Shown in pieces: positions 21,704 to 36,607 of a stretch of 40,000 bases of DNA. This DNA comes from an uncultured Desulfobacterales bacterium (GTDB lineage: Bacteria; Desulfobacterota; Desulfobacteria; Desulfobacterales; 4572-123): positions 36,829-76,828 of the forward strand of contig CALNYM010000011.1 in the NCBI GenBank assembly GCA_942490765.1, read 5' to 3'. The stretch's first letter is position 1. Each line of letters starts with the position of its first letter. The notes below the pieces were generated by a model. The model searched no databases. It saw only the letters and a list, made by a program, of their open reading frames with translations, and had not been told where the DNA came from. The translations under genes were made by a program, and so were the position numbers.

Positions 21704-23098
21704 TTAACTATTTTTTTCGATGGCGTTTTTGACGGCGGTTAGTATTTGATCCATCTGTTCTTTAGTGGCGACAAGGGCCGGCGCAAAGAGCATCATGGTG
21801 TTCATACCCGGCAGGCTGGAGTTGGTTCTGCCCACCAGCACGCCCTGGGCGGCCACATCCGCCACCAGTTTACCCATAAACGCTTCGGAAACAGGCGTTT
21901 TGGATGCCTTGTCCGTCACGAACTCCACCCCACAGAAAAGACCTTTGCCGCGGACGTCTCCAACAATGGGAAAATCCAAAAACGCTTTCAGGCCATTGAG
22001 CAGATATTCGCCTACCACCCTGCTGTTTTCCACAAGGTTTTCATCATCAATGATGCGGGCCGTCTCAAGACCCGCGGCCATGGCGCCGGTACACCCGCCA
22101 TAGGTGCTGATATCCCGGAAATAATTCAACCGTTTTTCCGGTGTCCCGGTATCGAGGAACAGGTTAAAAATGTCATCGCTTATGGCGGTAACCGATAATG
22201 GCTCATAGCAACTGGCAACGCCCTTGGCCATGGTCACCATGTCCGGCGTTACATCATAGTGTTCATGGCCCCAGAATTTTCCGGTACGACCGAACCCGCA
22301 GACCACCTCGTCAAAGATCAGGTAGGCCCCATATTTTTTGCAGATCTGCTGGAGTATGGGATAGTATTCCTGGACGGGCACCAGGATGCCGCCGCCAGCG
22401 ACAATGGGTTCCACGATCACCCCCCCCACGGTGTCCGGGCCCTCTTTTAAAATGACATCTTCCAGGGCGCGGGCGCATTCGATGTTACAATCCGGATAGG
22501 TCTTGCCAAAGGCGCACCGGTAGCAAAGCGGGTGGGGAAACTCGGCAAACCCTTCAGCCATGGGTCCGAAATGCGCTTTTCGTTCACTCTGTCCCCCGGC
22601 GCTCAATGCACCGATGGTGGTACCGTGATAGTCCCGGTCACGGTAGATCACCTTGAATTTACCTTTACGGTCATCGTTGATTTTCGCAAGCTGCCGGATG
22701 ACCTTAAAGGCCTTCTCATTGGCTTCGGAACCGGAATTTGAAAAAAATATTTTCTTTTGATGGGGAAGTTTCTCTGCGAGTTTTTTAGCAAATTTAATGG
22801 CGGGGACTGTGCCGACCGCACCGGCGTAGTAGCACAGTTTTGTCAACTGTTCAGCCACCGCCTCGGCAATACTCCTGCGACCGTAACCCACCACCACGCC
22901 CCACACACCACCGGAGACCGCATCAAGATATTCCCGGCCCCGGATATCTTTTACCACAAGGCCGTTGCCTTCCACAATAACCATCTGTTCCTTGTCTGCA
23001 AAGACACTATGGTCCTTGAGATGATGCCATAAAAAATCCTTGTCCGCCGCAACCATCTCTTCCACATCGTAATCAAGCCAGTTTGTTTTCGGATCCAT
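21704..23098 (-). CDS. Class-III PLP-dependent aminotransferase (omega-amino acid / beta-alanine / taurine:pyruvate type)
   Basis: 464 aa with the DEVVCGFGRTGKFW motif and the PLP-lysine context VTMAKGV. The stop lies 22 nt before the mttB start. Confidence 0.85.
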   Translation of the reverse strand: MDPKTNWLDYDVEEMVAADKDFLWHHLKDHSVFADKEQMVIVEGNGLVVKDIRGREYLDAVSGGVWGVVVGYGRRSIAEAVAEQLTKLCYYAGAVGTVPAIKFAKKLAEKLPHQKKIFFSNSGSEANEKAFKVIRQLAKINDDRKGKFKVIYRDRDYHGTTIGALSAGGQSERKAHFGPMAEGFAEFPHPLCYRCAFGKTYPDCNIECARALEDVILKEGPDTVGGVIVEPIVAGGGILVPVQEYYPILQQICKKYGAYLIFDEVVCGFGRTGKFWGHEHYDVTPDMVTMAKGVASCYEPLSVTAISDDIFNLFLDTGTPEKRLNYFRDISTYGGCTGAMAAGLETARIIDDENLVENSRVVGEYLLNGLKAFLDFPIVGDVRGKGLFCGVEFVTDKASKTPVSEAFMGKLVADVAAQGVLVGRTNSSLPGMNTMMLFAPALVATKEQMDQILTAVKNAIEKNS

Positions 23099-23205
23099 AT
23101 TTCAATCTCCTTATTTTAATTCCTATGTTGAGCGATTAGCTTTACAAACAAGGTTTTTGTTCAGACGCAGGCGCATATCGCTTACCCCATGCTTACCTGG
23201 TGTGA

Positions 23206-24780
23206 TTATTTTGCATCCGGCATGGAAGAGATTGTTCCATCCCAGGTATCCACGAGACCGCAGGCTTCCTGGTCTTCGGGAAACCAGGTGGCGGTGACGC
23301 ATTTGGATTCGGTAAAGAAACTGATACCATCTTTGCCCATCACATGCAGATCTCCAAAAAAGGATTGTTTATGACCGGTAAAACCGAAAATACCCAGTGG
23401 TACCGGGATGCCGACATTGACACCCACCATGCCGGCATCGGTCCGTTTGGAAAATTCCCGCGCGTAATGGCCGTTCTGGGTATAAATGACCGAACCGTTG
23501 GCGAAACGGCTGCTGTTCATCAAGGCCAGTCCTTCCTCAAAATTTTGGACCCGTTTGACGCAGAGTACCGGGCCAAAGACTTCCTCCCAGCCGATGGTCA
23601 TTTCCGGTGTCACATGGTCAAAGATGCAGGGCGCCAGATAAAAACCGCCCTCATGACCCGCTACCTTGGGATTACGGCCGTCCACGATCAGTTCGGCGCC
23701 CTCTTCGATTCCTTTTTCGATCCAGTCGGTGATAAACTTCAGATGGCCCGCGTTCAAGATGGGCCCCATGCCGGTGTCCGGGTCATAGGCAGGGCCAAGG
23801 TTCATTTCGGCTACAAATTTTTTCAGCAGCGCAATCAGTTCATCCGCAATGCACTCTTCCACAACGATCACCGGGCAGGCCATACACCGGGCACCGGCAC
23901 AGCCGCAATAGGCATTGATAATACCCCTGGCGGTTCGCTCCAGTTTTGCATCCCGCATGACCAGCGCATGGTTTTTGGCTTCGGTGAGGGCCTGCACGCG
24001 CTTACCGTTGGCAGCGGCGGTGGCATAGATGTGCTTGCCGGTTTTGGTGGACCCCACAAAAGACACCCCGGCAATATCGGGATGGCTAAGGAGAATCTCG
24101 GCCTCATTACGGCCTGCGGTGACCAGATTGAGTACCCCCTCGGGCAGTCCGGCCTCATGCCAGAGTTCCAGGAGTCGCATGGACGTCTGGGGCACAAAAC
24201 TGGCGGCTTTCAGCACCATGGTATTGCCCGTGGCGATACACAGCGGTGCCATCCAGCCATGGGGAATCATGGCGGGGAAATTCCAGGGTGCAATACCGGC
24301 GAAAACGCCGACGGGGTGTCTGTAGAGAACCGTGTCATATCCGGCGGAAGCGTTCATCAGGGATTCTCCCTTCATCAGGTGGGGGGTCCCGCAGGCAAAT
24401 TCGACCACTTCGTTGACTTTCAGCACATCGCCCATGCTTTCCCGCCAGTTTTTACCTTCTTCCTGGCACAAAAGATGGGTCAGTTCTTCCAGATGTTCAT
24501 CCACCAGCGCCTTCATACGATACAACACCTGAACCCGTTTACTGACCGGGGTGTCGGCCCAGGCCGGAAACGCCGCCTTAGCGGAATGAATGGCCGATTC
24601 GACTTCTTCGGATGTGCACTGCGGCGCCATGGCGATCACTTCGCCGGTGGACGGATTATAGCAATCCATGTATTTTGTTGTTTTTGATTCAAGCCACTGC
24701 CCGTTGACGCAGTATTTCAGTTTTTTGACCGAATTTTTTGAAGACGATCCACTCTCCATAAAATATCTTGATTTCTGCAA
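23206..24780 (-). CDS. mmsA: CoA-acylating methylmalonate/malonate-semialdehyde dehydrogenase (ALDH family)
   Basis: 524 aa. It is colinear with MMSDH/IolA-type enzymes as recalled: GIAPWNFPAMIP, GARCMACPV (catalytic Cys), AGMVGVNVGIPVPLGIFGFTGHKQSFFGDLHVMGKDGISFFT. The start is ambiguous between TTG 24780 and ATG 24759. Confidence 0.85.
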   Translation of the reverse strand: MQKSRYFMESGSSSKNSVKKLKYCVNGQWLESKTTKYMDCYNPSTGEVIAMAPQCTSEEVESAIHSAKAAFPAWADTPVSKRVQVLYRMKALVDEHLEELTHLLCQEEGKNWRESMGDVLKVNEVVEFACGTPHLMKGESLMNASAGYDTVLYRHPVGVFAGIAPWNFPAMIPHGWMAPLCIATGNTMVLKAASFVPQTSMRLLELWHEAGLPEGVLNLVTAGRNEAEILLSHPDIAGVSFVGSTKTGKHIYATAAANGKRVQALTEAKNHALVMRDAKLERTARGIINAYCGCAGARCMACPVIVVEECIADELIALLKKFVAEMNLGPAYDPDTGMGPILNAGHLKFITDWIEKGIEEGAELIVDGRNPKVAGHEGGFYLAPCIFDHVTPEMTIGWEEVFGPVLCVKRVQNFEEGLALMNSSRFANGSVIYTQNGHYAREFSKRTDAGMVGVNVGIPVPLGIFGFTGHKQSFFGDLHVMGKDGISFFTESKCVTATWFPEDQEACGLVDTWDGTISSMPDAK

Positions 24781-25121
24781 AATGTTATATCCCCTTTATT
24801 TTTAAGGTTTTTGTTAAATTTTTAGTTGATCTGTACGGAAGAATGTAAAAAACATGTTTGAATTTTTTTTGTCGAAGATATTGTCTGCATCATTAGGCGT
24901 TGTTAACTACGATGTCAAGTAAAAAATAACCTCAAGCTTACTTTTTCAGTTCATTGTTTTTATTTTTTCTACGTTTTTAGCTTTTTTTGTTTGTATTTTT
25001 ATGATAGATAATTTCAATCTGTTCCATAACAGGCATTTTAAACCAACCTGTGCATCGGCTTGAACCATCTCCGCGGTGGGGAAACAGGTCTCTGTTCAAA
25101 CACTAAAAAATGAGGATTTTT

Positions 25122-25634
25122 ATGGAAAACCGAAAATCAAAAAAAAATATCAAACCACCGGATCTGGTTGATTGCGAAATTATTAATTTATTGCAAAAGG
25201 ACGGCAGAATTTCAAATACCGATATTGCAAAAGAAATCGGCATTTCGGAGGGAACCGTTCGTACCCGCTTGAACCGGTTGATTAAAAACGAGGTCATTCA
25301 GATTGTCGCCGTCAGCAACCCCATCAAACTCGGCTTTAATATCGTCGGGCAAATCAGAATTCAGATAGATGTTGGCAAGATGGAGAATATTGTAACAAAA
25401 TTGAAAAAATTAAAAGCCCTGTGGTTTATCGTTCAGACCACCGGGGGAACCACCGGTCTTGAAGCTGAATTTAACGTCAAGTCTCTGGATGAACTCAATA
25501 CATTGATTTTTGAATACATCAACAAGATAGACGGTGTCATCAAAACCGAGGTCTCCCTGATAATGGATTTTATCAAGCGACGATATGATTGGGGCACCGC
25601 CATGGATGAAAAACAGGGATCCACGGACAAATAA
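25122..25634 (+). CDS. AsnC/Lrp-family transcriptional regulator
   Basis: Track ORF 25110..25634. GAGGA lies 5 nt upstream of ATG 25122. HTH motif: ISNTDIAKEIGISEGTVRTRLNRL. It has a C-terminal RAM-like domain and is divergent from the mmsA operon. Confidence 0.85.
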   Translation: MENRKSKKNIKPPDLVDCEIINLLQKDGRISNTDIAKEIGISEGTVRTRLNRLIKNEVIQIVAVSNPIKLGFNIVGQIRIQIDVGKMENIVTKLKKLKALWFIVQTTGGTTGLEAEFNVKSLDELNTLIFEYINKIDGVIKTEVSLIMDFIKRRYDWGTAMDEKQGSTDK

Positions 25635-25809: not shown

Positions 25810-26123
25810 TCGCCGAGCCTTCAGATATTGATTCACATTGAATAACTTTTGTTAATTTACGGTGGTGGCCACTGATGGTACACAATATCATTTCAGCTCA
25901 TAACCCGTAAACGCCGTGTTCCGGGCTTATACCCAAGCCGTCCCTGTCGGGTCGGATTTCTACCGTCTTAATACGGTGCCTAACTTACCTGAACAAAGGT
26001 CTGCAAAGTATGCCTTTCTTTTGCATAACAGATCGATTCCGTCTAATCGGTTACATGTAATCCCTTCTCACGGATTTTCATGTTATGCGAAAAACAAAAA
26101 ACGCTCTTAAAAAGGAGGAAAGC

Positions 26124-27515
26124 ATGGGAAAAATTAAAACCCGAATGGGCGATGGCTTCAAGGTCGAAATGACCGAAAGCGAAGTCCGAAAAGCCCTGGA
26201 AGAAGGGACTCAGGATGCGGCAGAACGCGCCCGGGTCGAACCGCTGACCCCGGACGATTTACAACAGATTTTTGAAATTTTTGCCTGTCCTTATCGAATC
26301 GTTGGTGTTGAGGAAGGCAATGAAGTCGTTCTTACCTACGACAGCCTTAACACCAAAATCAAGCGGGCCCAGATTTCAGCCAGCAAGATCCAGTCCCTGC
26401 AGATTTGTGAAAGGGCCCTGGGGGCAGACACCCTGGAGCTTGCCCATATCGACTATAGCTATAAACCCGTAAAACCGATCATTCCCTTTGAAAAACCGAT
26501 TATGGAGCAGGCTGTCCTGATCACAATCCCGGCATTGCTCTATGGCGCCATGCCCAACCTGGGGCTCTACAGCCAGCCGGACGGTCCATGCCCCAATCCT
26601 GCGGATCTTCTTCCCCATGGGAAAATTGCCGAAGCCAGGGCATCCTATGAAGAGGCTGCCGAATATGCCATAGCCGACATGGTTTATGTGGGCAGTGAGA
26701 TGTACGAAGCCGGCGCAGACGGCATCAATTTTGATACCACGGCAGCAGCCGGGGATGCGGAATTTTATGCAACCCTCAAGGCGGTGGAGATTCTCAGAAA
26801 AAAATATCCCGCCATGGGCATCCAGATGGGTATGGCCGCGGAATTTGTATTGGGAATGCACGGAGAGATTGAATATAACGGGGTCCGTCTGGCCGGGCTC
26901 TACCCCCACCAGCAGGTCAAACTCGCCGAGGAGGCGGGTGTAAACATTTTTGGACCGGCCGTCAATATCGTCACCAACGAATCGTTGCCCTGGAATATTG
27001 CCCGCTCGGTTACCTGGACCAAAGCCTGTACGGATGTTGCCAAGATTCCGGTGCACGCATGTCTGGGTATGGGGGTCGGCGGTGTCCCCCTGGCCCTTAC
27101 GCCACCCATCGATGCCCTTTCACGGGCATCAAAGGCCCATGTCGAGATTTGCAGGCTGGACGGGTTGTAGGTGGGTGTCGGAGACCCGTGCGGGATGCAC
27201 GCTGCACATGCAATAGTATCGGGAATGGGTGGAATACGCACTGCCGGAGATCTGGTAGCGCGTATGCAACTCAATGGCTCGATGAAAATTGATGCAGCAA
27301 AAAAACATGTCGCAGATAAGTTGAACATTTCTGTAGCGGATATTGCGGATCCGGTGGTGATGAACGAACTCCGGGAAGATCTGGATATCGGCCGCGTCAA
27401 TGAGGCCCCCGGTGTGGCCAAGGGTATTGATGCGAAGTTTCGGATCGCCAGGCTTCTGGACATTAACATCAACTCGGTGAACATATTCAAGGAGAAAATA
27501 GAACGCGACATATGA
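26124..27515 (+). CDS. mtbB: Dimethylamine:corrinoid methyltransferase MtbB with an in-frame UAG (pyrrolysine) codon, 463 codons
   Basis: Track ORFs 26085..27170 and 27171..27515 abut in the same frame and are separated only by TAG: ...[47 protein letters not shown]... AAGGAGG lies 6 nt upstream of ATG 26124. MtbB-family blocks are present (DYSYKPVKP, LYGAMPNLGLYSQPDGP, GADGINFDTT, GMHGEIEYNGVRLAGLYPHQQ). Confidence 0.9.
27168..27170 (+). other. UAG recoding site (predicted pyrrolysine, codon 349 of mtbB)
   Basis: Context is GAC GGG TTG TAG GTG GGT GTC GGA GAC. The downstream frame stays open for 115 codons with no RBS of its own. Confidence 0.85.
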
Positions 27516-27659: not shown

Positions 27660-28313
27660 ATGACGACAATTGAAGTACGCTTTGAAGAAGCCAAAAAAGC
27701 CATCGTAGCGTGTGACGCTGAAAATGCATCGCTGGTGGCGACACAGGGTTTAGCAGATGGAATTGACCCTGTTGAATTTTTGAACAAGGGTTTCATTCCC
27801 GGAATAAATGAGGTCGGAGAGCTTTTCGGTAAAGGCCGGTTGTTTCTTCCCGAATTGATTATCGCTGCAGAAGCCATGCGTCAGGTAACCGATATTATTA
27901 ATGGTGCACTTGAAGCCGCCGGAACGATTTCAAAAAAGGCAGGGAAAATTCTCATGGCCACTGTTCAGGGTGATGTCCATGATATCGGTAAAACCATTGT
28001 GGTGTCACTTTTCAAAGCCAACGGATTTGAGGTGCTGGATTTGGGTCGAGATATTTCCAATGAAAAAATTATTGAAGAAGCTGTGCGGTTTGAAGCCGAT
28101 ATTATCGGTACCAGCGCGCTTCTCACCACAACAATGCCAGCCCAGCAAAAACTTGAAAAAGAACTGAAGAAAGCCGGCCTGAAGGGAAAAATCAAGACGA
28201 TTGTCGGTGGGGCGCCCGTAACACAGAGATGGGCCCAGCGCATCGGCGCAGATGCTTACGCCCAGGATGCGTCAGATGGCGTTCAGAAAGCAAAGCTGAT
28301 GTTAGGCATCTGA
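27660..28313 (+). CDS. mtbC: Methyltransferase-cognate corrinoid protein (B12-binding; MtbC-like by position)
   Basis: 217 aa. It has an N-terminal helical cap domain plus a Rossmann B12-binding domain with the DxHxxG motif (GDVHDIGK). AAGGAG lies 7 nt upstream. Confidence 0.8.
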   Translation: MTTIEVRFEEAKKAIVACDAENASLVATQGLADGIDPVEFLNKGFIPGINEVGELFGKGRLFLPELIIAAEAMRQVTDIINGALEAAGTISKKAGKILMATVQGDVHDIGKTIVVSLFKANGFEVLDLGRDISNEKIIEEAVRFEADIIGTSALLTTTMPAQQKLEKELKKAGLKGKIKTIVGGAPVTQRWAQRIGADAYAQDASDGVQKAKLMLGI

Positions 28314-28463
28314 ACGCAATGGCAATAACCGATTTTAACCGGGGAACCGTACCTGCCGAAAGGCACACGAACGGTTCGGGGAGGAGAATCAGGAGCAAGC
28401 GGTATTTTATTATTTCATTTGTCATTTTTAACCCCCTATTGAACAAAAGTAAGGAGGATGCAA

Positions 28464-29729
28464 ATGCTCAACTTAAAGAAATTAATGGTTTTCTCGCTAG
28501 TCGTTTTTTCTGTAATCTCATTTACGGCCATGAATTCGCTGGCGGCTGACAAGGTGTTTACCCTTGGGGTTCTCGGACCGTTTACCGGACCGGCTGCTGA
28601 GACGGGACAAGACATGAAAAACGCCGCCCAGATGGCGTTTGATGAAATTGGCAACAAGATTGGCGATTACACTGTAAAGTTGGTTTACATCGATGACCAG
28701 TCATCCCCTGATAAAGGCGCCAATGCCTATGCCGAGGCCATTGAAAGAAAGGGCGTCCAGGCCGGAATTCTCAACTGGAATACCTCGGTGACCGTAGCTT
28801 GTCAGCCGGTGTGGGGTAAGTACAAGGTTCCCCATTTTTTCTGCATGGGGGCAGGCTCAGCCGGAAATGAGAAGTGGGCATCTTTAGCCCCGGAAGACCG
28901 TTACCTGATCATGAAGGGGTGGCCGATCCCTCAAAAATTAGTGGTTGCTTATTCGGATTGTTTCCGGAATTACATTGCCAATGATACTTGGAAACCTGAA
29001 AAAAAACTGGTGGCCTTCTGGGGTGAGGATACCGATTGGGGAAGAAGTCTGATCGGTGGTTTGGCCAAATATTTGAAAGCTGACGGCTGGGAAGTGTTTA
29101 CCGAAGAGTATTTTGCCCTGACACAGACCAATTTTTATCCGTTTATCAGCAAGTGCAAAAAGGCAGGCGTCACCGCCATGTGTGGTTCCAGCACCGGTGC
29201 CGGCTCTATTTCTGCCATGATCAAGCAATCGGACGAACTGGGATTTAAGGCCATGCAGGTTGCCGACGGTTTAGGCTGGATCGGTGATTGGTATAAGTTG
29301 ACCGGACGGGCATCCGATGGCGTAATGGACCTGGTACCCCAAATCGTTACGCCGACGCAAAAGGCCTGGGCGGAAAGCTACAAAAAGAAATTTAACAAGA
29401 ACCCCAGTCCGGCCTCTGCCGGCATGAGTTATGACTATGCTAAATTTATGGCCAAAATTGCAAAACGGGCCCTGGAAAAATACGGTGCCATCAACAGCGA
29501 AACCATAACCAAAGTCGGCCGGGAAGAGGTAGCCACCGGTAAAATGAGTTACGGACGTGAAGATGGCGCACTGTTCCATGCCAGATACGGCACCGACGCT
29601 GAAAATGCTCCGGATCCCAAAATCGGTACGGAAGATTTTTATTTCCCGCTGGTTCAGTATGAAAAAGGTGTTGGTTATTGTATATTCCCGGAAAGCATGA
29701 AAACACGTGAGATGAAGGTAAAAAAATAA
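28464..29729 (+). CDS. ABC transporter substrate-binding protein, type-1 periplasmic binding fold (LivK/amide-urea family)
   Basis: Track ORF 28458..29729. AAGGAGG lies 6 nt before ATG 28464. The signal peptide is MLNLKKLMVFSLVVFSVISFTAMNSLAADK. Confidence 0.8.
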   Translation: MLNLKKLMVFSLVVFSVISFTAMNSLAADKVFTLGVLGPFTGPAAETGQDMKNAAQMAFDEIGNKIGDYTVKLVYIDDQSSPDKGANAYAEAIERKGVQAGILNWNTSVTVACQPVWGKYKVPHFFCMGAGSAGNEKWASLAPEDRYLIMKGWPIPQKLVVAYSDCFRNYIANDTWKPEKKLVAFWGEDTDWGRSLIGGLAKYLKADGWEVFTEEYFALTQTNFYPFISKCKKAGVTAMCGSSTGAGSISAMIKQSDELGFKAMQVADGLGWIGDWYKLTGRASDGVMDLVPQIVTPTQKAWAESYKKKFNKNPSPASAGMSYDYAKFMAKIAKRALEKYGAINSETITKVGREEVATGKMSYGREDGALFHARYGTDAENAPDPKIGTEDFYFPLVQYEKGVGYCIFPESMKTREMKVKK

Positions 29730-29739
29730 TGGTGTAATA

Positions 29740-29766
29740 AATGAGGCCACCTTGTGTGGCCTCATT
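29740..29766 (+). terminator. Intrinsic terminator candidate after the binding-protein gene
   Basis: The 11-bp perfect stem AATGAGGCCAC / GTGGCCTCATT has the 5-nt loop CTTGT and begins 11 nt after the stop. It is followed by GTTGCGCTTTTCC. Confidence 0.6.
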
Positions 29767-30158
29767 GTTGCGCTTTTCCATTGGAATTTATCAAAAAACA
29801 GTGGATCTGGGGAATTGCTTTCCAACGTTTCTTGTGAATGTGGGGCATGTCGTAACACGTTTCTTCAAAGGTGCCGGGATCGCCACCATAGTCGTTCAGA
29901 CCCTTTTTAAAGCGCTTGAACGCCAAGTCTCTTTGCCATCTGTTGCAAACAGAACCTCTCGGTCCGAGAAAGTTCGCGGACAGATTTACCCGTCTGTCGC
30001 CTCGTCGACGGCAGTTTTTATCCATCTTTTTCATAATAAGAAAAAATACTTTTTTTATCCCAAGGAAAGCGACTGATTGCTCGTCATTAGCGTTTCGCTC
30101 TACAAACAACGAGGATTCCTCATACCCAGTCTTAGTAACTACTGACCCATGGTGAATT

Positions 30159-30890
30159 ATGAATATTTTAGAAACAAAGGATTTGACCAAACAATTCGGC
30201 GGCTTAATTGCCAACAATAAAATATCCATGCATTGCAAACAAGGGGAAATCCTGGGGCTGATCGGCCCCAACGGTGCCGGCAAGACCACTTTTCTCAATG
30301 CCATCGCTGGCTTGAGCGGCCCTACGTCCGGAAAGGTCTATTTTAAGGGTGAGGAATGTACCGGTTACCCTTCCCAAAAAATGTGCCGCAGAGGATTGTC
30401 GCGAACGTTCCAGATTCCCCAGCCGTTCCCGAGAATGACGGCTGTACAAAATGTTATGGTGGCAGCGGTTTTCGGCCGCAGGAAGCAATTCAGTGAAAAA
30501 GAATATTTGGACGTCTGCCGGGAAAAACTTGATTTTGTCGAATTTCCGGTGCAGGAAGACATCATATCCGGAACGTTGAATACCGTTCAGTTAAAACGTC
30601 TCGATCTGGCCCGGGCACTTGCTTCCAATCCTAAGCTGATACTTCTGGATGAGATCGCTTCCGGGCTTACAGAAGGAGAGCTGGGTGACCTGATGAAAAT
30701 CATCAGTAAAATAAGGGATATTGGGGTTACCATTATCATGGTCGAGCATATCATGCAGGTCATCATGGGGTTATGCGAACGCCTGGTGGTCATTCAGTTC
30801 GGCAATAAAATCGCCGAAGGGCCAACAAAAGCGGTTGCCCAGGACCCTAAGGTCGCTGAAGCTTATCTGGGTGCTTCGGAAGAACAGTAA
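30159..30890 (+). CDS. ABC transporter ATP-binding protein (LivG type)
   Basis: 243 aa with Walker A GPNGAGKTT and Walker B LILLDE. A LivG-style C-terminal extension is present. Confidence 0.85.
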   Translation: MNILETKDLTKQFGGLIANNKISMHCKQGEILGLIGPNGAGKTTFLNAIAGLSGPTSGKVYFKGEECTGYPSQKMCRRGLSRTFQIPQPFPRMTAVQNVMVAAVFGRRKQFSEKEYLDVCREKLDFVEFPVQEDIISGTLNTVQLKRLDLARALASNPKLILLDEIASGLTEGELGDLMKIISKIRDIGVTIIMVEHIMQVIMGLCERLVVIQFGNKIAEGPTKAVAQDPKVAEAYLGASEEQ

Positions 30891-30938
30891 AGCAGTATAC
30901 TTGGAAAATGGTAAATCAAGCCATAAAGGGAGGCGCAA

Positions 30939-31646
30939 TTGCTGCTCGAAGTAAACAATATCAACGCCGGGTACGATTTTTTACAGATTTTACGGAACCT
31001 TTCCTTAAACGTTGACAAAGGTGAATATGTTTGCCTGGTGGGACCAAACGGTGCCGGGAAAAGTACGATACTGAAATCCATTGCCGGTTTATTAAAACCC
31101 ATGTCCGGCGTTATCACATTTAACGAAGAACAAATTGACGGGTTGCCCGGGCATGTGATTCATAAAAAAGGAATCAGTTATATCTCTGAAGACCTGGATC
31201 TTTTTACCGCGATGTCGGTAAAGGAAAATCTGGCAATGGGCGCCTATACAATCAATGATAAAAAAAATATTAGCGAACTGTTTGGTTTTGTTTATGCCCT
31301 TTTCCCCAGGTTAAAGGAAAGAGAAAAACAACTGGCCGGAACCATGAGCGGCGGCGAGCGTAAAATGCTGGCCATCGGCCGGGGCATGATGTCCAATCCG
31401 AAGTTGATGCTGTTTGATGAACCATCAATGGGATTATCTCCGGAAATGACCAACGCTGTTTTTAAGGCCTTGGGTGTTTTAAACTCAAAAGGGGTGACCA
31501 TTTTGCTGGTGGAGCAGAATGTGACCAAAAGTTTCAAAGTAAGTACGCGGGGATACGTTCTGGAGCATGGTGAAATCGTACTGCAGGGGCCTTGCTCGGA
31601 TTTGGCCCGGAATGAACACGTACGAAAAGTATTTCTCGGGATTTAG
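30939..31646 (+). CDS. ABC transporter ATP-binding protein (LivF type)
   Basis: 235 aa with Walker A GPNGAGKST and signature MSGGERKM. It has a TTG start with GGGAGG 5 nt upstream. It ends in TAG, with an in-frame TAA 5 codons later. Confidence 0.85.
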   Translation: MLLEVNNINAGYDFLQILRNLSLNVDKGEYVCLVGPNGAGKSTILKSIAGLLKPMSGVITFNEEQIDGLPGHVIHKKGISYISEDLDLFTAMSVKENLAMGAYTINDKKNISELFGFVYALFPRLKEREKQLAGTMSGGERKMLAIGRGMMSNPKLMLFDEPSMGLSPEMTNAVFKALGVLNSKGVTILLVEQNVTKSFKVSTRGYVLEHGEIVLQGPCSDLARNEHVRKVFLGI

Positions 31647-31682
31647 CAAACAATTAATGAATAACGGCAGGGGAAAGTATCT

Positions 31683-32720
31683 ATGGCAAACCCAAAAACC
31701 GAATTGATAGTGAACCGTCTGGGCCGCTGGCTAAAGTCGGCCGGCGGAATAACCGTTACCTTGACAATCGTTGCGGCCTGTCTCGCAGCAATGGATAAGG
31801 GCAGTTATATCATTGTTCAAACCATCGTCACGGGGGGAATGTGGGCATTGGTGGCCATGGGATTGGCCCTGATTTTCGGTGTGATGAATATTACCAGTTT
31901 TGTTCATGGCGAATTTTTTATGATCGGCAGTCTGGTGGCCTATTTTGTCATCACGCCTTTTGTCGACACAATAGCCGACAATCCGGATACGCTTTGGGCT
32001 GCGGTAATGCCTTTGGCAACCATGTTCATCGCTTTGGTGGTCGGTGCCATTGCCGGGGCGATTAGCGAGCATGTGGTCTTTCGACCCATGCGTAAACGCA
32101 GTAAAAAAGATTGGTTGATGAACTCCTTTGTTCTTACTCTGGGCCTGTCTGTCATACTGATAAACAGCCATCAGGTATTTTTAGGGGCTAGTTTCAAGGG
32201 AGTTGTAAAATACTGGCATTATCCATCAATATCCATCTTTGGTGCCTATATTTCCTTTGACCGGGTAATGGTCTTCATCATTGCCATGTTTTCAATCTCT
32301 GGCTTTTGGGTACTGATGAGACTGACCAAAGTCGGCAGGGCCATCCGAGCCGTTTCCCAGAGTGAAAACGGGGCCATTATCACCGGTGTTAACATTGACG
32401 CCATTCAGACCCTTACCCTGGCTTTGAGCTGCGGTATGGCTGCTCTGGCCGGTGCCGCACTTCTTTTTATGTATCCGGCATATCCGACAGTTGGGTTGGG
32501 ACCGCTTTACAATTCGTGGTTCATTGTTATCGTCGCCGGCCTGGGAAACGTGGCCGGTGCGGCTTTCGGAGGATTTCTCGTAGCATTACTCCAGGTTTTG
32601 ACTACCGTCTATATAGGTGAAGGATGGGACTATACGGTTCCGGTTGCCTTTTTGATGCTCGTTCTGGTTTTTAAGCCTTCAGGCATATTTGGAAGTGAAG
32701 TCAGAGGAAAACTTGAATAA
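31683..32720 (+). CDS. ABC transporter permease (LivH type)
   Basis: 345-aa polytopic membrane protein in the branched-chain amino-acid permease family. Confidence 0.8.
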   Translation: MANPKTELIVNRLGRWLKSAGGITVTLTIVAACLAAMDKGSYIIVQTIVTGGMWALVAMGLALIFGVMNITSFVHGEFFMIGSLVAYFVITPFVDTIADNPDTLWAAVMPLATMFIALVVGAIAGAISEHVVFRPMRKRSKKDWLMNSFVLTLGLSVILINSHQVFLGASFKGVVKYWHYPSISIFGAYISFDRVMVFIIAMFSISGFWVLMRLTKVGRAIRAVSQSENGAIITGVNIDAIQTLTLALSCGMAALAGAALLFMYPAYPTVGLGPLYNSWFIVIVAGLGNVAGAAFGGFLVALLQVLTTVYIGEGWDYTVPVAFLMLVLVFKPSGIFGSEVRGKLE

Positions 32721-32745
32721 TCAGCAAGAATAAACAGGAGCAGCC

Positions 32746-33780
32746 GTGAAAAGTATTCAAGCAAATAATAAAAATGATGGTATTGATCGTTTATCAAAAT
32801 ATACCGGCATGACCCCGATGGGTCTCCTGGGCCTGGCGGTCATCGCCATATTGCCCTTTATTCCCCCTTTTAACCAGGAGTATCTGATACGATGGCTGGT
32901 TTTTGGCCTGTTCATGGCAGCCCAGGCTGTGGTTTTCAATTTTACCAATGGTTACATCAATATCGTTAACTTCGGTTTTGCCGCCTTTGTCGGTTTAGGT
33001 GCCTATACCTCTGGCATTCTGTCTGTAAAACTGGGTCTTTCTCCCTGGATCACAATTTTTCTGGGGATTATTCCGGCCGCATTCGTGGGCTTTATTACCG
33101 GGGTATTAACCCTCCGGTTGCGGGGTATTTATGCGGCCATCATGGCCTGGTTTGTCGGGTTGGCCCTGATGGGGCTGGCCACCAAAATGGTTTGGCTGAC
33201 CGAAGGCCCTCTTGGATTGAATTGTCCGGCGCTTTTTAAGACCTCATCAAACATTCCCTATTTCTACACCATATTGGTTATGTTGCTGGTATCCTATATT
33301 GTATTGAATCGAATCGTAAAATCTCATGCCGGCCTGGCATTTATCGCCATTGGTCAAAACATGGATGCGGCCATGACCTCGGGGATCAACCCTACTTTTT
33401 ACCGGGTATTTAATTTTACGGTTTCCTGCGCGTTTGCCGGTTGGCTGGGAGGATTCTATGCACATTATTACGGAATCCTGATGCCGGAATCAATGCACAC
33501 CTCTAAAACGGTGGAAGTCCTGGTAGTGGGTTATCTTGGTGGACGGGCCACTCTCTGGGGCGGTGCTGCAGCCGCTATTCCCTTTGTTTTTTGCATGGAA
33601 ATGATCAGGTCCGCAACATCAAATTATCCAGGTGTTAATTTAATTTTTTATGGATTATCTTTGGTTCTGCTGATGATGTTCTATCCCGGTGGCCTTGCCT
33701 ATCTTTACCAGAACATAGTTGAACGTGTCAAAAATCCCTGGCTGAAACGATTGTTCGGTTTAAAGGTCATAACAAAATAA
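32746..33780 (+). CDS. ABC transporter permease (LivM type)
   Basis: 344-aa polytopic membrane protein. It has a GTG start with AGGAG 5-6 nt upstream. Confidence 0.8.
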   Translation: MKSIQANNKNDGIDRLSKYTGMTPMGLLGLAVIAILPFIPPFNQEYLIRWLVFGLFMAAQAVVFNFTNGYINIVNFGFAAFVGLGAYTSGILSVKLGLSPWITIFLGIIPAAFVGFITGVLTLRLRGIYAAIMAWFVGLALMGLATKMVWLTEGPLGLNCPALFKTSSNIPYFYTILVMLLVSYIVLNRIVKSHAGLAFIAIGQNMDAAMTSGINPTFYRVFNFTVSCAFAGWLGGFYAHYYGILMPESMHTSKTVEVLVVGYLGGRATLWGGAAAAIPFVFCMEMIRSATSNYPGVNLIFYGLSLVLLMMFYPGGLAYLYQNIVERVKNPWLKRLFGLKVITK

Positions 33781-33835
33781 AAACAGAAATACGGCGCGAA
33801 AGTTTGTCCGAAGCGCTTACAGATGCCGGAAACAA

Positions 33836-33890
33836 AAAACCCGGCCCCTCGGGAACTGCATAAGGCAGTAAACCGGTGGGACCGGGTTTT
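33836..33890. terminator. Bidirectional terminator candidate between convergent genes
   Basis: AAAACCCGG (33836..33844) pairs with CCGGGTTTT (33882..33890), plus 3 further GC pairs and an inner ACTGC/GCAGT hairpin. The A-tract on the left and T-tract on the right fit termination on both strands. Confidence 0.5.
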
Positions 33891-33920: not shown

Positions 33921-34550
33921 TTATACCAGAGATTTGGCCAGCTTGGTGGCTGAACCGGCATCTGCGGCATATCCGTCGGCACCGATTTCATCGGCATACT
34001 TCTGATTTACCGGGGCACCGCCGATGATGACCTTGACCTTGTCGCGGTATCCGGCTTCAACCAGGGCGTCGATGGTTGTTTTCATCATACCCATGGTGGT
34101 GGTGAGCAGGGCAGAGATGGCAACGATGGTGGCGCCCTGGTCTTTTACGGCGGCCACAAAGGTTTCCGGGGCCACGTCAACACCCAGGTTGATCACCTCA
34201 AAACCGGCGCTTTCCAGCATCATGGCCACCAGGTTTTTACCGATGTCATGCAGGTCGCCCTTGGCCGTACCCATGGCAACCTTGCCGGCGGCTTTGGCAT
34301 CTTCTACGGACAGCAGGGGTTTAAGGATTTCCACTGCTGCGGCCATGGCCTTGGCGGACATGAGCACTTCGGGGATAAACATATCGCCGTTCTGCATTTT
34401 TTCGCCGACAATATCCATGCCTTTGATCAATCCGTTATTGAGAATATCTTTTGCTTCCATTCCCTCGTTTACGGCGGCCTGTACAAGCGTTTTCAATGTT
34501 GCTGCATCGCCGGCTATCAGTGTGTTCGAAAGTGCGTTTAAATCTGCCAT
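33921..34550 (-). CDS. mttC: Methyltransferase-cognate corrinoid protein (B12-binding; MttC-like by position)
   Basis: 209 aa with a cap domain plus a B12-binding domain carrying DxHxxG (GDLHDIGK). It starts 47 nt downstream of the mttB copy 2 stop. Confidence 0.8.
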   Translation of the reverse strand: MADLNALSNTLIAGDAATLKTLVQAAVNEGMEAKDILNNGLIKGMDIVGEKMQNGDMFIPEVLMSAKAMAAAVEILKPLLSVEDAKAAGKVAMGTAKGDLHDIGKNLVAMMLESAGFEVINLGVDVAPETFVAAVKDQGATIVAISALLTTTMGMMKTTIDALVEAGYRDKVKVIIGGAPVNQKYADEIGADGYAADAGSATKLAKSLV

Positions 34551-34597: not shown

Positions 34598-36091
34598 TTA
34601 TTTTTTTAAAACCGCGGCCCGTTTTTCTTTTGCTTCGGCCTCGGCATCTTCAAATATTGTGTTTAACTGGGCCTGAATGTTTTCAGGCAACGCTTCTACC
34701 TTGTGACTGGCAATGATGTGGGTTGCCCTGGCATAGGCTTTTTCCACAACATCCTTTGATCCATCTGCAATCCATCCGTCACGGCTTTTTCTGTCAAAAA
34801 GGTCGCCCTGGGACTGCCGCCGCATGTTTTTAAAGGTATGCGGATGGGTGATGAATTCACCGCCGTGGCCCACCTCTTTGATGACGTCAAAAGCAATGGC
34901 TTCATCGGTAATGGTAAATCCTTCGACGGCCTTCATGATCATTCTCAGCATTTCATTGTGTAAAACCGCCTGGGCGTAATCCCAGGTCAAACCGCTGTCA
35001 AGCATCCCGAGGCCGTAAATCAGGTTGGCACCTGCCAACGCCGTTAAAGTGGCCGTTAAAGTATATTCATGGGCTGCCTGAGCATCGGGCATTTTGCTGT
35101 CCACCTATCCACCGGCGACCCAGGAGGGCAGCCGGTAAAATTTGGCCAGTTTGGCGATGGCCGCGCTGAACATGCCCATTTCCGGGGTCCCCATGGCCGC
35201 CAGGCCGGTTTTCAGATCCATAATACTGGTGGAACTGCCGTACACCATGGGATGTCCTTTGCGAACGGCCTGTCCCAGAACGATCATGCTCAAATTTTCA
35301 GCATTATGGGTGACAAGGCTGCTGGCCAGGTTGATGCAGGTGGTGCCACCCGCCAGCCCAAGGGGGTTTATTTTCAGGGGAACCCCCAGTCGACAGGCTT
35401 CAATCAGAACGTCGCAGGCATCTTTTGAATGCAGCAACGGGCTGATGGGATCACAGGTTGTGGAGAAAATCGGTCTTTCACGGAATTTGTCATCACCGCC
35501 GGCCACAACGGAGGCCATCTTAAAACAGGTCCTCAGGTTTTCAACCGAGTTGATGCCGATATAGCCATGTTTGGTGCAGGAATTCAAAAAACTTTTGATG
35601 TTGTAAAGGCAGCAGATATCCTGGTCCATATCGCAGGGGGTTAACGGTCTTTCAAACACAATGACCTGGTCCAGTGCGTCCAGAAACAACGTGGCATCAT
35701 CAACGTCAGCTTTTGTGGGGGTTCTTAATTTTCTGGTTTTGGGGTCGATCATCATGGGGGCTTCGCCAAAATTGACAAATCCCGAACGACCGTTTTCACA
35801 AACATAATCCTTTTCAGGATCACGGGCGCAAGCCTTAAAAGTGGAAGGGCAGGACCTGATGGCATCTTCAACCAGATGGGCTGGGATTTTGACTATTTTG
35901 GTTCTATTATTGACAATACAACCAATTCCGTCAAAAATTTCAAGGGCCTGGGAGCTTTCCACTTTGACCCCCATTTCCCAGAGAATTTCCAGAGTAGCCA
36001 GATGAATTTTTTCCAATTCGTCATCGGAAAACATGTTCAGACCGATACCACTGGTCAGAACGGTTCCCGGCTGCAAATTTCTTACCGCCAT
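34598..36091 (-). CDS. mttB: Trimethylamine:corrinoid methyltransferase MttB (second, divergent copy) with an in-frame UAG (pyrrolysine) codon, 497 codons
   Basis: Track ORFs 35105..36091 and 34598..35104 abut in the same frame and are separated only by TAG: ...[50 protein letters not shown]... The TAG is in the same position and GG-TAG context as copy 1. Confidence 0.85.
35105..35107 (-). other. UAG recoding site (predicted pyrrolysine, codon 329 of mttB copy 2)
   Basis: The plus strand reads CTA, which is TAG on the minus strand, in the context GGT GGA TAG GTG GAC AGC AAA. Confidence 0.8.
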
Positions 36092-36506
36092 AATTGGTTT
36101 CCTTCATTTTCATAGAAAGACGATAAAATTTCGGTTTTTTACCGGAGGCTGCCAATAATGGTATGTTTTTTCCGGTAATGAAAGACTCTCCTTGTGTGCT
36201 GCAACAGCTTTTAATTATAGATATTTTTTTGTTGAATACCTCCTTAATTTATTAAATAAAAATTCAAAATAATGGACCATTTGATCGCCTATAAACCCTT
36301 AAGGGCGCGGTATAATGACTCTGGGTCAAAAAGTCAATCATAATCATCACAAAAGGGTGTATTTTTATGAATTCGCCTGAAAAGATATCCTTTGGGTGGC
36401 TGAAATCACATCGTGCCATCCGAAGATGGTGTTTCCGTTCAATCTCTGCGGTCTGTTCAAAAAATAATCCTCGGAATATCAAACAGATGCCTCCGGTTAT
36501 GGTATC

Positions 36507-36543
36507 GTATGCCTTGACTTTGAACAAAAGGTCTCGTTTCTGG
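36507..36543 (+). repeat. Copy B of the 37-nt conserved intergenic element (first copy at 4277..4313)
   Basis: 28/37 identity to copy A, ungapped. It lies in the 650-nt intergenic region between mttB copy 2 and the HAD gene, 65 nt upstream of a terminator-like hairpin. Confidence 0.4.
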
Positions 36544-36607
36544 GCGGACATTATCGATTACAGGGTAAAGAAAAATTGACAATAGTTTTCAGTATGGTTT
36601 AATCAGC

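What the first reader, a model, noticed from the sequence alone, without database searches (positions are those of the whole stretch)
35105..35107. In-frame amber codon in the second, divergent mttB copy
ORFs 35105..36091 and 34598..35104 abut exactly in one frame across a TAG ([23 protein letters not shown]), giving 497 codons in total. By eye the two MttB copies are only moderately similar, at well under two-thirds identity in the C-terminal third, so they are old paralogs. Both still retain the TAG at the homologous codon (328 versus 329). This copy is followed by its own corrinoid protein gene.
Basis: partly seen in the sequence, partly recalled or inferred. Interest (0 to 1): 0.8.

Follow-up and report, generated by a model that had tools for sequence, protein, structure and literature searches.

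The report
Pyrrolysine codon in second mttB gene
The in-frame TAG is real and is almost certainly a pyrrolysine codon in a working trimethylamine methyltransferase gene of a sulfate-reducer-type bacterium. That is a known kind of gene, but it carries a previously undescribed conserved RNA hairpin 66 bases after the TAG.

Summary
Confirmed. Minus-strand gene 34598..36091 has 497 codons and one in-frame TAG (35105..35107, codon 329). That TAG aligns exactly with pyrrolysine-334 of the solved Methanosarcina barkeri MttB. The catalytic partners Gly110 and Tyr364 are kept.

All 97 related loci I fetched (54-99% identity) have TAG at this codon, never TAA, TGA or a sense codon. Wherever the contig reaches far enough, the frame then stays open for about 160-178 more codons, under purifying selection. 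In most loci the codon after TAG cannot serve as a start codon. This rules out a pseudogene or a split gene.

A corrinoid protein gene follows 47 nt downstream. The window also holds mttB copy 1 and an mtbB gene, each with a TAG at its pyrrolysine site.

The source is a Desulfobacterales population, an order already reported to carry several Pyl-mttB copies. The pyl genes are not in the window, and I could not search the source genome for them.

One thing is new. A 6-bp hairpin at 35024..35039, starting 66 nt after the TAG, is kept by repeated compensatory synonymous changes in 72 non-redundant relatives. Three sense-codon sister lineages lack it. Its function is unknown.

The parts
34598..36091 (-). 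mttB copy 2: a trimethylamine:corrinoid methyltransferase gene of 497 codons, including one TAG, ending in TAA
   Evidence: Translation. Pfam MTTB 311.9 bits. PDB 7XCL E 7e-95, aligned over residues 2-484. NCBIfam TIGR02369 622 bits against a cutoff of 525.
35105..35107 (-). In-frame TAG (codon 329), inferred pyrrolysine codon
   Evidence: Aligns with X (Pyl334) of M. barkeri MttB. TAG in 18/18 genome loci and 79/79 metagenome loci.
34598..35104 (-). Post-TAG part of the gene: 168 codons plus the stop. It carries Tyr364-equivalent Tyr359 in the motif NLIYG.
   Evidence: dN/dS is 0.11-0.24 while dS is saturated. Tyr is present in 16/16 orthologs.
35024..35039 (-). Conserved RNA hairpin G-UUGGC-[AGGU]-GCCAA-C, at nt +69..+84 from the U of UAG (codons +22 to +27, peptide ALAGAN)
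   Evidence: 99.3% of cells are paired in 72 sequences. Two pairs switch GC<->AU without intermediates. Covariation score is 0.163 against 0.084 for shuffles, reached by 0/500 shuffles. RNAalifold finds the hairpin independently. The region is a synonymous-site conservation hotspot.
33921..34550 (-). Corrinoid protein gene (mttC-like), 209 aa, with the DxHxxG cobalt-ligand motif (DLHDIG)
   Evidence: Pfam B12-binding and B12-binding_2. NCBIfam best hits are MtgC_2 (213 bits) and pyl_corrinoid TIGR02370 (199 bits, just under its 215.3 cutoff).
33844..33856 (-). Terminator-like hairpin plus T-run after mttC; a possible operon end
   Evidence: Consensus scan only; the number found equals the shuffle expectation.
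20209..21681 (-). mttB copy 1 (490 codons, TAG at 20698..20700), a paralog
   Evidence: TIGR02369 670 bits. It has a variant hairpin at the same codons.
26085..27515 (+). mtbB, a dimethylamine methyltransferase gene with an in-frame TAG at 27168..27170
   Evidence: Pfam Dimeth_Pyl matches model positions 3-353 before the TAG and 355-462 after it. Rfam PYLIS_2 69.4 bits.
27660..28313 (+). mtbC-like corrinoid protein
   Evidence: TIGR02370 pyl_corrinoid 224 bits against a cutoff of 215.
28458..33780 (+). Liv/Urt-type ABC transporter lying between mtbC and mttC: a binding protein, a 111-aa ORF, 2 ATPases and 2 permeases. It is absent from the closest GTDB genome.
   Evidence: Pfam. L006 lacks window 28306-33822.
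25110..25634 (+). AsnC/Lrp-type regulator upstream of mtbB
   Evidence: Pfam HTH_24, HTH_AsnC-type and AsnC_trans_reg.

Best explanation
Gene 34598..36091 encodes a functional pyrrolysine-dependent trimethylamine:corrinoid methyltransferase (MttB).

Proposed mechanism:
- The ribosome reads UAG at codon 329 as pyrrolysine, using tRNA-Pyl and PylRS encoded elsewhere in the genome. This step is inferred.
- The pyrroline ring of Pyl binds trimethylamine (TMA). A methyl group then passes to Co(I) of the corrinoid protein encoded 47 nt downstream.
- Dimethylamine would be handled by the neighbouring Pyl-type MtbB/MtbC.
- In a Desulfobacterales host the methyl group would go on to tetrahydrofolate and be oxidised with sulfate as electron acceptor. 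That last step follows Kivenson et al. 2021 and was not tested here.

The gene is one of at least two old mttB paralogs in this genome. The closest GTDB reference genome (L006) carries three.

A short hairpin 66 nt after the UAG is under selection at the RNA level. Its role is open. It may affect UAG decoding, or the fate of the mRNA while a ribosome waits at UAG.
For: Shown directly:
- The protein is homologous over its full length to solved M. barkeri MttB, and the TAG lies on Pyl334.
- Gly110 and Tyr364, reported as 100% conserved in Pyl-type MttBs (PMC9842639), are present in 16/16 sequences of this clade.
- TAG is invariant in 97/97 related loci at 54-99% identity. The terminal stop of the same genes varies (TAA 7, TGA 6, TAG 2).
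- The frame after the TAG stays open for 157-178 codons wherever the contig extends, with dN/dS 0.11-0.24.
- The codon after TAG is ACN, AGY or TGT in 51/79 metagenome loci, so translation cannot restart there.
- All 67 truncated database products end one residue before the Pyl column.
- A corrinoid protein gene lies directly downstream.
- In 12 Firmicutes-type members of the same clade, pylB, pylC, pylD or pylSn lie within 3 kb of the gene.
- In two other bacterial MAG contigs (L026 is labelled Deltaproteobacteria; the organism of L029 was not identified), pyl clusters sit beside TAG-type mttB or mtbB genes.

From the literature: Desulfobacterales MAGs have the full pyl machinery, up to five Pyl-mttB copies and a Pyl-mtbB (PMC8318568).
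Against: - No pylT, pylS or pylBCD gene lies in the 40-kb window or in about 9 kb beyond its 3' end. The rest of the source genome could not be searched.
- No Desulfobacterales PylS could be tied to any of the 18 orthologous genomes.
- Met249 of M. barkeri MttB is Leu here, and Thr111 is Glu.
- The adjacent corrinoid protein scores slightly below the pyl_corrinoid cutoff, and its best match is MtgC-type.
- In 5 of 18 orthologous loci the neighbour is a dimethylglycine-oxidase-like gene, not mttC. Substrate identity is therefore inferred, not shown.
Confidence: 0.9

Rival explanations
1. It is a pseudogene: the TAG is a nonsense mutation in a decaying second copy.
For: An internal stop codon is present. 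A 99.7%-identical metagenome contig (L004) shows a frameshift near the 5' end of this gene.
Against: TAG is present at the same codon in 97/97 relatives. The downstream frame is intact and dN/dS is 0.11-0.24. The L004 frameshift is absent from the window, L001 and L006, so it is probably a long-read assembly error.
Confidence: 0.02
2. It is a split enzyme: TAG is a true stop, and the 168-residue C-terminal part is translated separately from the GTG that follows the TAG.
For: In the window the codon after TAG is GTG, a possible start, so ORF lists show two abutting ORFs.
Against: The next codon is ACN, AGY or TGT in 51/79 metagenome loci, and ACG, AGC or AGT in 5 of the 18 genome loci. The stop is never TAA or TGA. 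The position coincides with the catalytic Pyl of the solved enzyme.
Confidence: 0.02
3. UAG is read through, but with a canonical amino acid (near-cognate or other suppression), in a host without Pyl machinery.
For: No pyl genes were found in the sequence available for the source organism. Close non-Pyl homologs tolerate A, H, W, L and other residues at this site. One contig carries a TGG copy that is 92.5% identical to a TAG copy.
Against: Three Pyl-family genes with a TAG in one window argue for a dedicated decoding system. If any residue would do, strict TAG retention across about 100 loci would not be expected. Related lineages and published Desulfobacterales MAGs have pyl genes (PMC8318568).
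Confidence: 0.04
4. UAG is Pyl, but this paralog acts on a tertiary amine other than trimethylamine (for example N,N-dimethylglycine or another dimethylated compound).
For: There are at least two deep paralogs per genome (43% identity). Met249 is Leu and Thr111 is Glu. In L008, L013, L016, L020 and L021 the ortholog adjoins a DAO+FAO_M+GCV_T gene, and in L013 and L020 also a distant non-Pyl MttB-family gene. The adjacent corrinoid protein is most like MtgC.
Against: In the window and its closest relatives the gene clusters with mtbB/mtbC, the next step of TMA breakdown; in L006 the two corrinoid genes directly abut. The Firmicutes members of the clade sit beside the pyl operon, like the canonical bacterial mttB. 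Gly110 and Tyr364 are kept.
Confidence: 0.12

Closest known systems
Methanosarcina barkeri MttB (PDB 7XCL/7XCM/7XCN; Li et al. 2023, PMC9842639)
   Same: The two proteins align over their full length (E 7e-95). The UAG lies on Pyl334. Gly110 and Tyr364 are conserved. A cognate corrinoid protein with a His-ligand motif is encoded next to the gene.
   Different: Identity is only 36.7%. The host is bacterial. Thr111 is Glu and Met249 is Leu. The methyl acceptor downstream of the corrinoid protein is presumably tetrahydrofolate, not coenzyme M. The archaeal consensus sequence does not form the hairpin found here (Rfam consensus).
Pyl-containing MttB of marine Desulfobacterales MAGs (Kivenson, Paul & Valentine 2021, PMC8318568)
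   Same: Same order of bacteria. The TAG is at about codon 327-329 of about 485-497. There are several mttB copies plus a Pyl-mtbB per genome, and a corrinoid protein gene nearby.
   Different: In those MAGs the pyl machinery was found. Here it could not be looked for. No RNA element was described there.
Non-Pyl MttB-superfamily enzymes, e.g. Desulfitobacterium hafniense MtgB (PDB 2QNE/9YCE)
   Same: Same fold and same corrinoid-dependent methyl transfer. The DSK motif after the Pyl position is shared.
   Different: MtgB has Leu at the Pyl position and His in place of Tyr364, and is only 30% identical. A much closer non-Pyl group (44-48% identical; A, H or other residues at the Pyl site) also exists and likewise lacks the TAG.
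PYLIS elements (mtmB1 PYLIS RF01982; Rfam PYLIS_3 RF02510 for mttB)
   Same: PYLIS_3 matches the 100 nt from the TAG at 81.6 bits. Like PYLIS, the hairpin found here is a structure inside the coding region downstream of the UAG.
   Different: The PYLIS_3 model has almost no structure, so the match is essentially coding-sequence similarity. The 120 nt after the TAG fold no better than shuffled sequence (z -0.6). The conserved hairpin is small (6 bp), starts 66 nt after the UAG, and is not part of the Rfam structure. Have et al. 2013 reported no common structure for mttB (PMC3639795).

Membership tests
Pyl-dependent trimethylamine methyltransferase MttB | Full-length homology to MttB (PF06253 / TIGR02369) | tested here: met
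   Pfam 311.9 bits. TIGR02369 622 bits against a cutoff of 525. PDB 7XCL E 7e-95. Caveat: non-Pyl homologs also pass TIGR02369 (592-638 bits), so this feature alone does not discriminate.
Pyl-dependent trimethylamine methyltransferase MttB | In-frame UAG at the codon homologous to Pyl334 of M. barkeri MttB | tested here: met
   X aligns with X in the phmmer alignment. The same column holds TAG in copy 1, L026 and 97 loci.
Pyl-dependent trimethylamine methyltransferase MttB | Sequence after the UAG is translated: conserved frame under purifying selection | tested here: met
   157-178 further codons are open wherever the contig extends. dN/dS is 0.11-0.24 with dS saturated.
Pyl-dependent trimethylamine methyltransferase MttB | Active-site Gly110 and Tyr364, invariant in Pyl-type MttBs | tested here: met
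   Gly 16/16 and Tyr 16/16 in the clade. Met249 is Leu in the window copy (residues taken from PMC9842639).
Pyl-dependent trimethylamine methyltransferase MttB | Cognate corrinoid protein encoded nearby | tested here: met
   Gene 33921..34550 lies 47 nt downstream and has B12-binding domains and the DLHDIG motif. Its TIGR02370 score is 199, against a cutoff of 215.
Pyl-dependent trimethylamine methyltransferase MttB | Host genome encodes pylT, pylS and pylBCD | not testable with these tools
   None were found in the window or in about 9 kb beyond it. The genes are present beside relatives' mttB genes and in published Desulfobacterales MAGs.
Pyl-dependent trimethylamine methyltransferase MttB | Pyrrolysine in the protein, and TMA-dependent corrinoid methylation | not testable with these tools
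   This requires mass spectrometry and an enzyme assay.
PYLIS_3 (Rfam RF02510) | Score above the gathering threshold | tested here: met
   81.6 bits against 38, at 35008..35107.
PYLIS_3 (Rfam RF02510) | A conserved secondary structure supports the family assignment | tested here: not met
   The model has few pairs and the hit is carried by sequence. The MFE z-score is -0.6. The structure that is supported by covariation (cols 69-74 with 79-84) is a different one.
Non-Pyl MttB superfamily (MtgB-like and the close sense-codon group) | Sense codon at the Pyl position | tested here: not met
   The window gene has TAG there. The 53 full-length homologs have A, H, T, L, I, N, M, P, V, W or F.

The most novel reading that the evidence does not exclude
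The 6-bp hairpin 66 nt downstream of the UAG (GCR UUR GCA GGN GCY AAY) may be a bacterial cis-element linked to pyrrolysine decoding, a functional counterpart of PYLIS.

Evidence:
- It is maintained by at least six independent compensatory synonymous double changes.
- It is present in 114 of 116 TAG-type mttB genes seen here, including deep paralog lineages.
- It is absent from three sense-codon sister lineages that encode the same ALAGAN-type peptide.

Possible roles:
- It could modulate ribosome traffic at the UAG.
- It could protect or regulate the mRNA while a ribosome waits for Pyl-tRNA.
Probability: 0.3. Interest if true: 0.75.

Novelty: new member of a known kind. Interest (0 to 1): 0.45.

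Why it matters
The gene adds one more Desulfobacterales lineage to the bacteria that can probably take trimethylamine away from methanogens by using the 22nd amino acid. It also shows how standard gene callers cut such genes into 328-aa and ~165-aa pieces: 67 of the 120 listed database homologs are truncated at exactly this codon.

The more useful outcome is the hairpin. Whether bacterial UAG-to-Pyl decoding uses any mRNA signal is unresolved, and mttB was reported to have no common structure. A small, covarying hairpin at a fixed distance from the UAG is a concrete, mutable candidate. It can be tested with synonymous disrupt-and-restore mutants.

Tried and rejected
1. **Pyl machinery of the source organism.**
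   - ARAGORN and Rfam found no tRNA in the window. ARAGORN also found nothing in L026, a locus that holds pylS, pylB, pylC and pylD. The negative result therefore says little about pylT.
   - tblastn with PylS against the window and all loci was negative for the Desulfobacterota loci.
   - Look-ups of window-edge genes extended the view by about 9 kb past the 3' end without finding pyl genes. The 5' edge gene was not on record.
   - PylSc searches with the D. hafniense sequence returned only Firmicutes in the top 120. A search with a profile of four diverse representatives, two of them labelled Deltaproteobacteria, returned mainly Anaerovoracaceae. No hit lay on a contig whose length matched any contig carrying the orthologs.
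   - The PylSc look-ups (P0255, P0265, P0451, P0476) led to unrelated organisms.
2. **TIGR02369 as a discriminator.** Rejected after the control showed that non-Pyl homologs pass it.
3. **A clean Pyl versus non-Pyl split in the NJ tree.** Not recovered (10/100 bootstraps). The tree covers the N-terminal 327 columns only and lacks MtcB, MtpB and MtyB.
4. **Rfam PYLIS_3 as evidence of structure.** Rejected.
5. **An extended three-helix structure around the hairpin.** Only weakly supported: 86% and 94% paired, with no clear covariation.
6. **The hairpin as an intrinsic terminator.** Its U-tract codons show no synonymous constraint (+29 at 0.42, +30 at 0.50), and the promoter/terminator scan showed nothing above the shuffle level.
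7. **The hairpin as a DNA palindrome for a protein.** Considered less likely, because base identity changes while pairing is kept, and because it is conserved across phyla.
Full report
**1. Observation**

Reading the minus strand from ATG at 36091 gives 328 sense codons, then TAG at 35105..35107, then 168 more sense codons and TAA at 34598..34600. The junction reads [23 protein letters not shown]. Copy 1 is at 20209..21681 on the same strand, with TAG at codon 328. The two proteins are 43% identical over 483 residues without gaps. The window has 50.5% G+C. Of 32 ORF termini, 20 are TAA, 9 TGA and 3 TAG. Among 11,304 codons of 30 confident genes, the only internal stops are three TAGs, in mttB copy 1, mttB copy 2 and mtbB.

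**2. Identity of the gene**

- The joined protein matches Pfam MTTB (311.9 bits) and NCBIfam TIGR02369 (622 bits against a cutoff of 525).
- Against solved structures the best match is M. barkeri trimethylamine methyltransferase 7XCL (E 7e-95, residues 2-484 aligned to 2-489). The TAG falls exactly on the X that stands for Pyl334.
- Li et al. 2023 report that Gly110 and Tyr364 are 100% conserved in Pyl-type MttBs and take part in activating Pyl. They also report that Met249 moves to admit trimethylamine (PMC9842639).
- In the window gene and 15 orthologs, Gly and Tyr are invariant. Met249 is Leu in the window copy and five others, and Met in ten. Thr111, whose backbone is what matters, is Glu.
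- Identity to M. barkeri MttB is 36.7% for copy 2 and 40.0% for copy 1.

**3. Is the TAG kept, and is the sequence after it translated?**

*Genome loci.* A scan of one genome per species gave 18 orthologous loci at 70-99% identity. They come from Desulfobacterales, Desulfobacteraceae, Desulfohalobiaceae and Thermodesulfobacteriota MAGs. All 18 have TAG at this codon. The 15 loci that do not run off their contig continue for 160-168 codons. The real stop codon of these same genes varies (TAA 7, TGA 6, TAG 2), so the invariance of the internal TAG is not simply slow evolution.

*Selection.* Pairwise dN/dS against the window copy is 0.02-0.14 before the TAG and 0.11-0.24 after it, with dS mostly above 1.5 or saturated.

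*Metagenome loci.* A metagenome scan with a profile of the clade gave 80 more loci at 54-91% identity. All 79 that reach the codon have TAG. Wherever the contig is long enough, a further 157-178 codons are open.

*No restart.* The codon after TAG is GTG in the window, but it is ACN, AGY or TGT in 51 of these 79 loci. Reinitiation at that codon is therefore not a conserved feature.

*Database products.* All 67 truncated homologs (~328 aa) end one residue before the Pyl column. All 53 full-length homologs carry a sense residue there.

These results exclude a pseudogene and a two-polypeptide enzyme.

**4. Surroundings**

- Forty-seven nucleotides downstream lies a 209-residue corrinoid protein gene with B12-binding and cap domains and the DLHDIG cobalt-ligand motif.
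- By NCBIfam that protein is nearest to MtgC-type proteins and to the pyl_corrinoid family, falling just under the latter's cutoff (199 bits against 215).
- On the other side of a Liv/Urt-type ABC transporter lie an mtbC-like gene and an mtbB gene whose TAG (27168..27170) sits at model position 354 of Pfam Dimeth_Pyl. An AsnC-type regulator precedes them.
- In the closest GTDB reference genome (L006, 94-97% nucleotide identity) the transporter is missing, and mttC directly abuts mtbC. The core cluster is therefore mttB-mttC next to mtbC-mtbB, consistent with stepwise demethylation of TMA and then DMA.
- Copy 1 has no corrinoid gene next to it. It lies with a class-III aminotransferase, a methylmalonate-semialdehyde-dehydrogenase-type enzyme, a short-chain dehydrogenase (SDR), two FAD oxidases and an electron-transfer flavoprotein (ETF).
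- Among the more distant orthologs of copy 2 the neighbourhood differs. In five of 18 loci a DAO+FAO_M+GCV_T protein (dimethylglycine-oxidase architecture) is adjacent. In two of these a distant non-Pyl MttB-family gene is adjacent as well. This keeps open the possibility that some members act on another tertiary amine.

**5. Source organism and the Pyl machinery**

*Source.*
- The window is 99.7% identical to a 281-kb long-read metagenome contig (ENA ERZ21869602 ctg94241l).
- It is 94-97% identical to a 2.58-Mb contig of a Desulfobacterales MAG (CAXXLK010000002.1).

*Pyl genes not found for the source organism.*
- No pyl gene or tRNA lies in the window or in about 9 kb beyond its end.
- I could not query the rest of either genome.
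- Two PylS searches returned mostly Firmicutes. None of the hits could be tied to a genome that carries an ortholog.

*Indirect support.*
- Within the same MttB clade, 12 Firmicutes-type metagenome loci have pylB, pylC, pylD or pylSn within 3 kb of the gene.
- Several PylS hits share contig lengths with MttB hits, for example Formimonas warabiya and Sporomusa acidovorans.
- A Deltaproteobacteria MAG contig (L026) carries mttB(TAG)-pylSc-pylD-pylSn-pylB-pylC.
- Another contig (L029) carries MT2-mtbC-mtbB(TAG)-ramA-pylSc-pylSn-pylD-pylB-pylC.
- Kivenson et al. 2021 found complete pyl machinery, Pyl-MttB with the TAG at codon 327 of 485, up to five mttB copies and a Pyl-mtbB in Desulfobacterales MAGs (PMC8318568).
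- Have et al. 2013 list a Deltaproteobacteria entry, printed as 'Desulfitobacterium autotrophicum' (presumably Desulfobacterium autotrophicum), as having pylS and tRNA-Pyl.

Decoding of this TAG as Pyl in this organism is therefore a strong inference. It is not an observation.

**6. Phylogeny, and a caveat on annotation models**

- An NJ tree of the N-terminal 327 columns (67 sequences) groups copy 2 with its 15 orthologs at 100/100 bootstraps. Their sisters are the Firmicutes TAG-type genes.
- Copy 1, the L026 gene and M. barkeri MttB branch more deeply.
- The close full-length non-Pyl homologs nest among the TAG-type genes and do not form an outgroup. The Pyl versus non-Pyl split is recovered in only 10/100 bootstraps.
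- Those non-Pyl proteins also pass the TIGR02369 'trimeth_pyl' equivalog cutoff (592-638 bits). The TAG itself, not the family model, is what identifies a Pyl-type member.
- D. hafniense MtgB is far more distant (30% identity, Leu at the Pyl site, His at Tyr364).
- I had no MtcB, MtpB or MtyB sequences.

**7. RNA signals**

*The Rfam match.* Rfam PYLIS_3 matches the 100 nt from the TAG (81.6 bits). However, the model is almost unstructured, so the match reflects coding similarity. The 120 nt after the TAG fold no better than shuffled sequence (z -0.6). The Rfam hit is therefore not independent evidence.

*Synonymous-site conservation.* Looking at synonymous sites gave something else.
- Among 14 non-redundant orthologs, 183 columns have an invariant degenerate amino acid, and only 7 of those have an invariant codon.
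- All 7 lie at codons 347-380, that is 18-51 codons after the TAG. The hypergeometric P is 6e-8, with the region chosen after looking at the data.

*The hairpin.*
- In 72 non-redundant sequences spanning the whole clade, codons +22 to +27 read GCG UUG GCA GGN GCC AAC.
- This forms G-UUGGC-[AGGN]-GCCAA-C, at window 35024..35039.
- The pair 23.3-26.3 is G-C in 53 sequences and A-U in 19.
- The pair 22.3-27.3 is G-C in 69 sequences and A-U in 3.
- No G-U or A-C combinations occur at either pair. All of these changes are synonymous.
- On a tree built from the flanking protein, the switches are scattered, implying at least six independent double changes.
- The count of structure pairs gives 99.3% of cells paired, against 25-62% for slid partners. 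The covariation score is 0.163 against 0.084 +/- 0.009 in shuffles, reached by 0/500 shuffles.
- RNAalifold predicts the same hairpin unaided.
- The synonymous loop base A (GCA) is invariant in 72/72 sequences.

*Distribution and controls.*
- The hairpin also occurs in deep paralog lineages: the third mttB of L006, the GDSK-type gene of L112, and a second gene in L089 with the A-U form. Window copy 1 has a variant at the same codons (UGCGUUGU-CAGGGU-GCAACGUA).
- Of 116 TAG-type genes found in all loci, 114 have it. The exceptions are L026 and the TAG copy of L126.
- Three sense-codon lineages encode ALAGAN or ALSGAN with GCC CUG GCG/UCC GGN GCN AAY and lack it. However, such GC-rich codons can form other small hairpins.
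- Flanking helices proposed by RNAalifold are weakly supported.

*Reading.* Have et al. 2013 reported that mttB shows no common structure, so this hairpin appears to be undescribed. That it is selected as a nucleic-acid structure is well supported. That it bears on UAG decoding is only a hypothesis. A hairpin that starts 66 nt after the UAG is well outside a ribosome positioned on the stop codon. The control set of sense-codon genes is small.

**8. Comparison and verdict**

The finding is a correct identification of a pyrrolysine-type mttB paralog, in an order where such genes, in multiple copies, have already been published. As a gene it is a new member of a known kind.

Still unverified:
- the presence of pyl genes in this genome;
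- the substrate.

The added value is twofold. The first is the control showing that annotation models do not separate Pyl from non-Pyl members. The second is the covarying hairpin, which gives a testable candidate for a bacterial mRNA signal associated with Pyl genes.

Scores:
- Confidence that the TAG encodes Pyl in a functional MttB: 0.9.
- Interest: 0.45, of which the gene alone would merit about 0.25.

Noticed in passing
window 26085..27515 (+), TAG at 27168..27170; mtbC 27660..28313: A third Pyl-type gene: a dimethylamine methyltransferase (mtbB) with an in-frame TAG at Pfam Dimeth_Pyl model position 354. It has an Rfam PYLIS_2 hit (69.4 bits) and is followed by its own corrinoid protein.
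   Followed up: partly
window 18914..24780 (-), around mttB copy 1 (20209..21681): Copy 1 has no adjacent corrinoid gene. It sits in a run of same-strand genes: a class-III aminotransferase, a CoA-acylating methylmalonate-semialdehyde-dehydrogenase-type enzyme, an SDR, two FAD-linked oxidases and ETF alpha/beta. This hints at a substrate whose demethylated product is an amino compound degraded via an aldehyde.
   Followed up: partly
window 28306..33822 versus L006 12269..12367; L005 1138..2493: The Liv/Urt-type ABC transporter between mtbC and mttC is absent from the closest GTDB genome (L006). In another metagenome variant (L005) a DDE transposase sits between mttC and the transporter. The locus is therefore structurally variable within the species.
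   Followed up: partly
L006 2544..3980 and 3987..5366: The related Desulfobacterales MAG carries a third TAG-type mttB (FVAGG-TAG-ADSK) followed by a second mtbB. These lie just beyond the region that corresponds to the window's 3' side, so that genome has at least three mttB and two mtbB genes within 21 kb.
   Followed up: partly
proteins P0027-P0120; L112 3001..4485, L122 3001..4491: A group of full-length non-Pyl MttB homologs (A, H, T, L, I and other residues at the Pyl site) is 44-48% identical to copy 2. They pass the NCBIfam 'trimeth_pyl' equivalog cutoff and nest among TAG-type genes in an NJ tree. In L112 one such gene lies directly upstream of a TAG-type mttB and an mttC. Their substrate is unknown.
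   Followed up: partly
L126 2521..3999 and 6496..7974 (JGI 3300032172, Ga0326343_1000534): Two mttB paralogs that are 92.5% identical lie on one contig. One has TGG (Trp) at the pyrrolysine codon and the other has TAG, so a Pyl/Trp exchange by a single base happened recently. Neither copy has the conserved hairpin.
   Followed up: partly
L008, L013, L016, L020, L021 (next to the copy-2 ortholog); L002 11488..13932: In five orthologous loci the Pyl-type mttB adjoins an 814-aa DAO+FAO_M+GCV_T protein (dimethylglycine-oxidase-like architecture). In two of them a distant non-Pyl MttB-family gene is adjacent as well. This suggests a betaine/dimethylglycine-related island.
   Followed up: partly
L026 1..18211: ARAGORN and Rfam found no tRNA in a locus that holds pylSc, pylD, pylSn, pylB and pylC. 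Either pylT lies elsewhere or these tools miss bacterial tRNA-Pyl. The empty tRNA result for the window is therefore uninformative about pylT.
   Followed up: no
L004 8460..9953 (ENA ERZ21869602 ctg94241l): The 99.7%-identical long-read contig has a frameshift near the 5' end of this mttB, so its gene call is 289 aa. The frameshift is absent from the window, L001 and L006 and is probably an assembly error.
   Followed up: partly
window 18..1082 (+), 29741..30076 (+), 36264..36551 (-): Three ORFs (354, 111 and 95 aa) have no Pfam or NCBIfam match. The 111-aa ORF is conserved in position inside the ABC transporter operon in L004 and L005.
   Followed up: no
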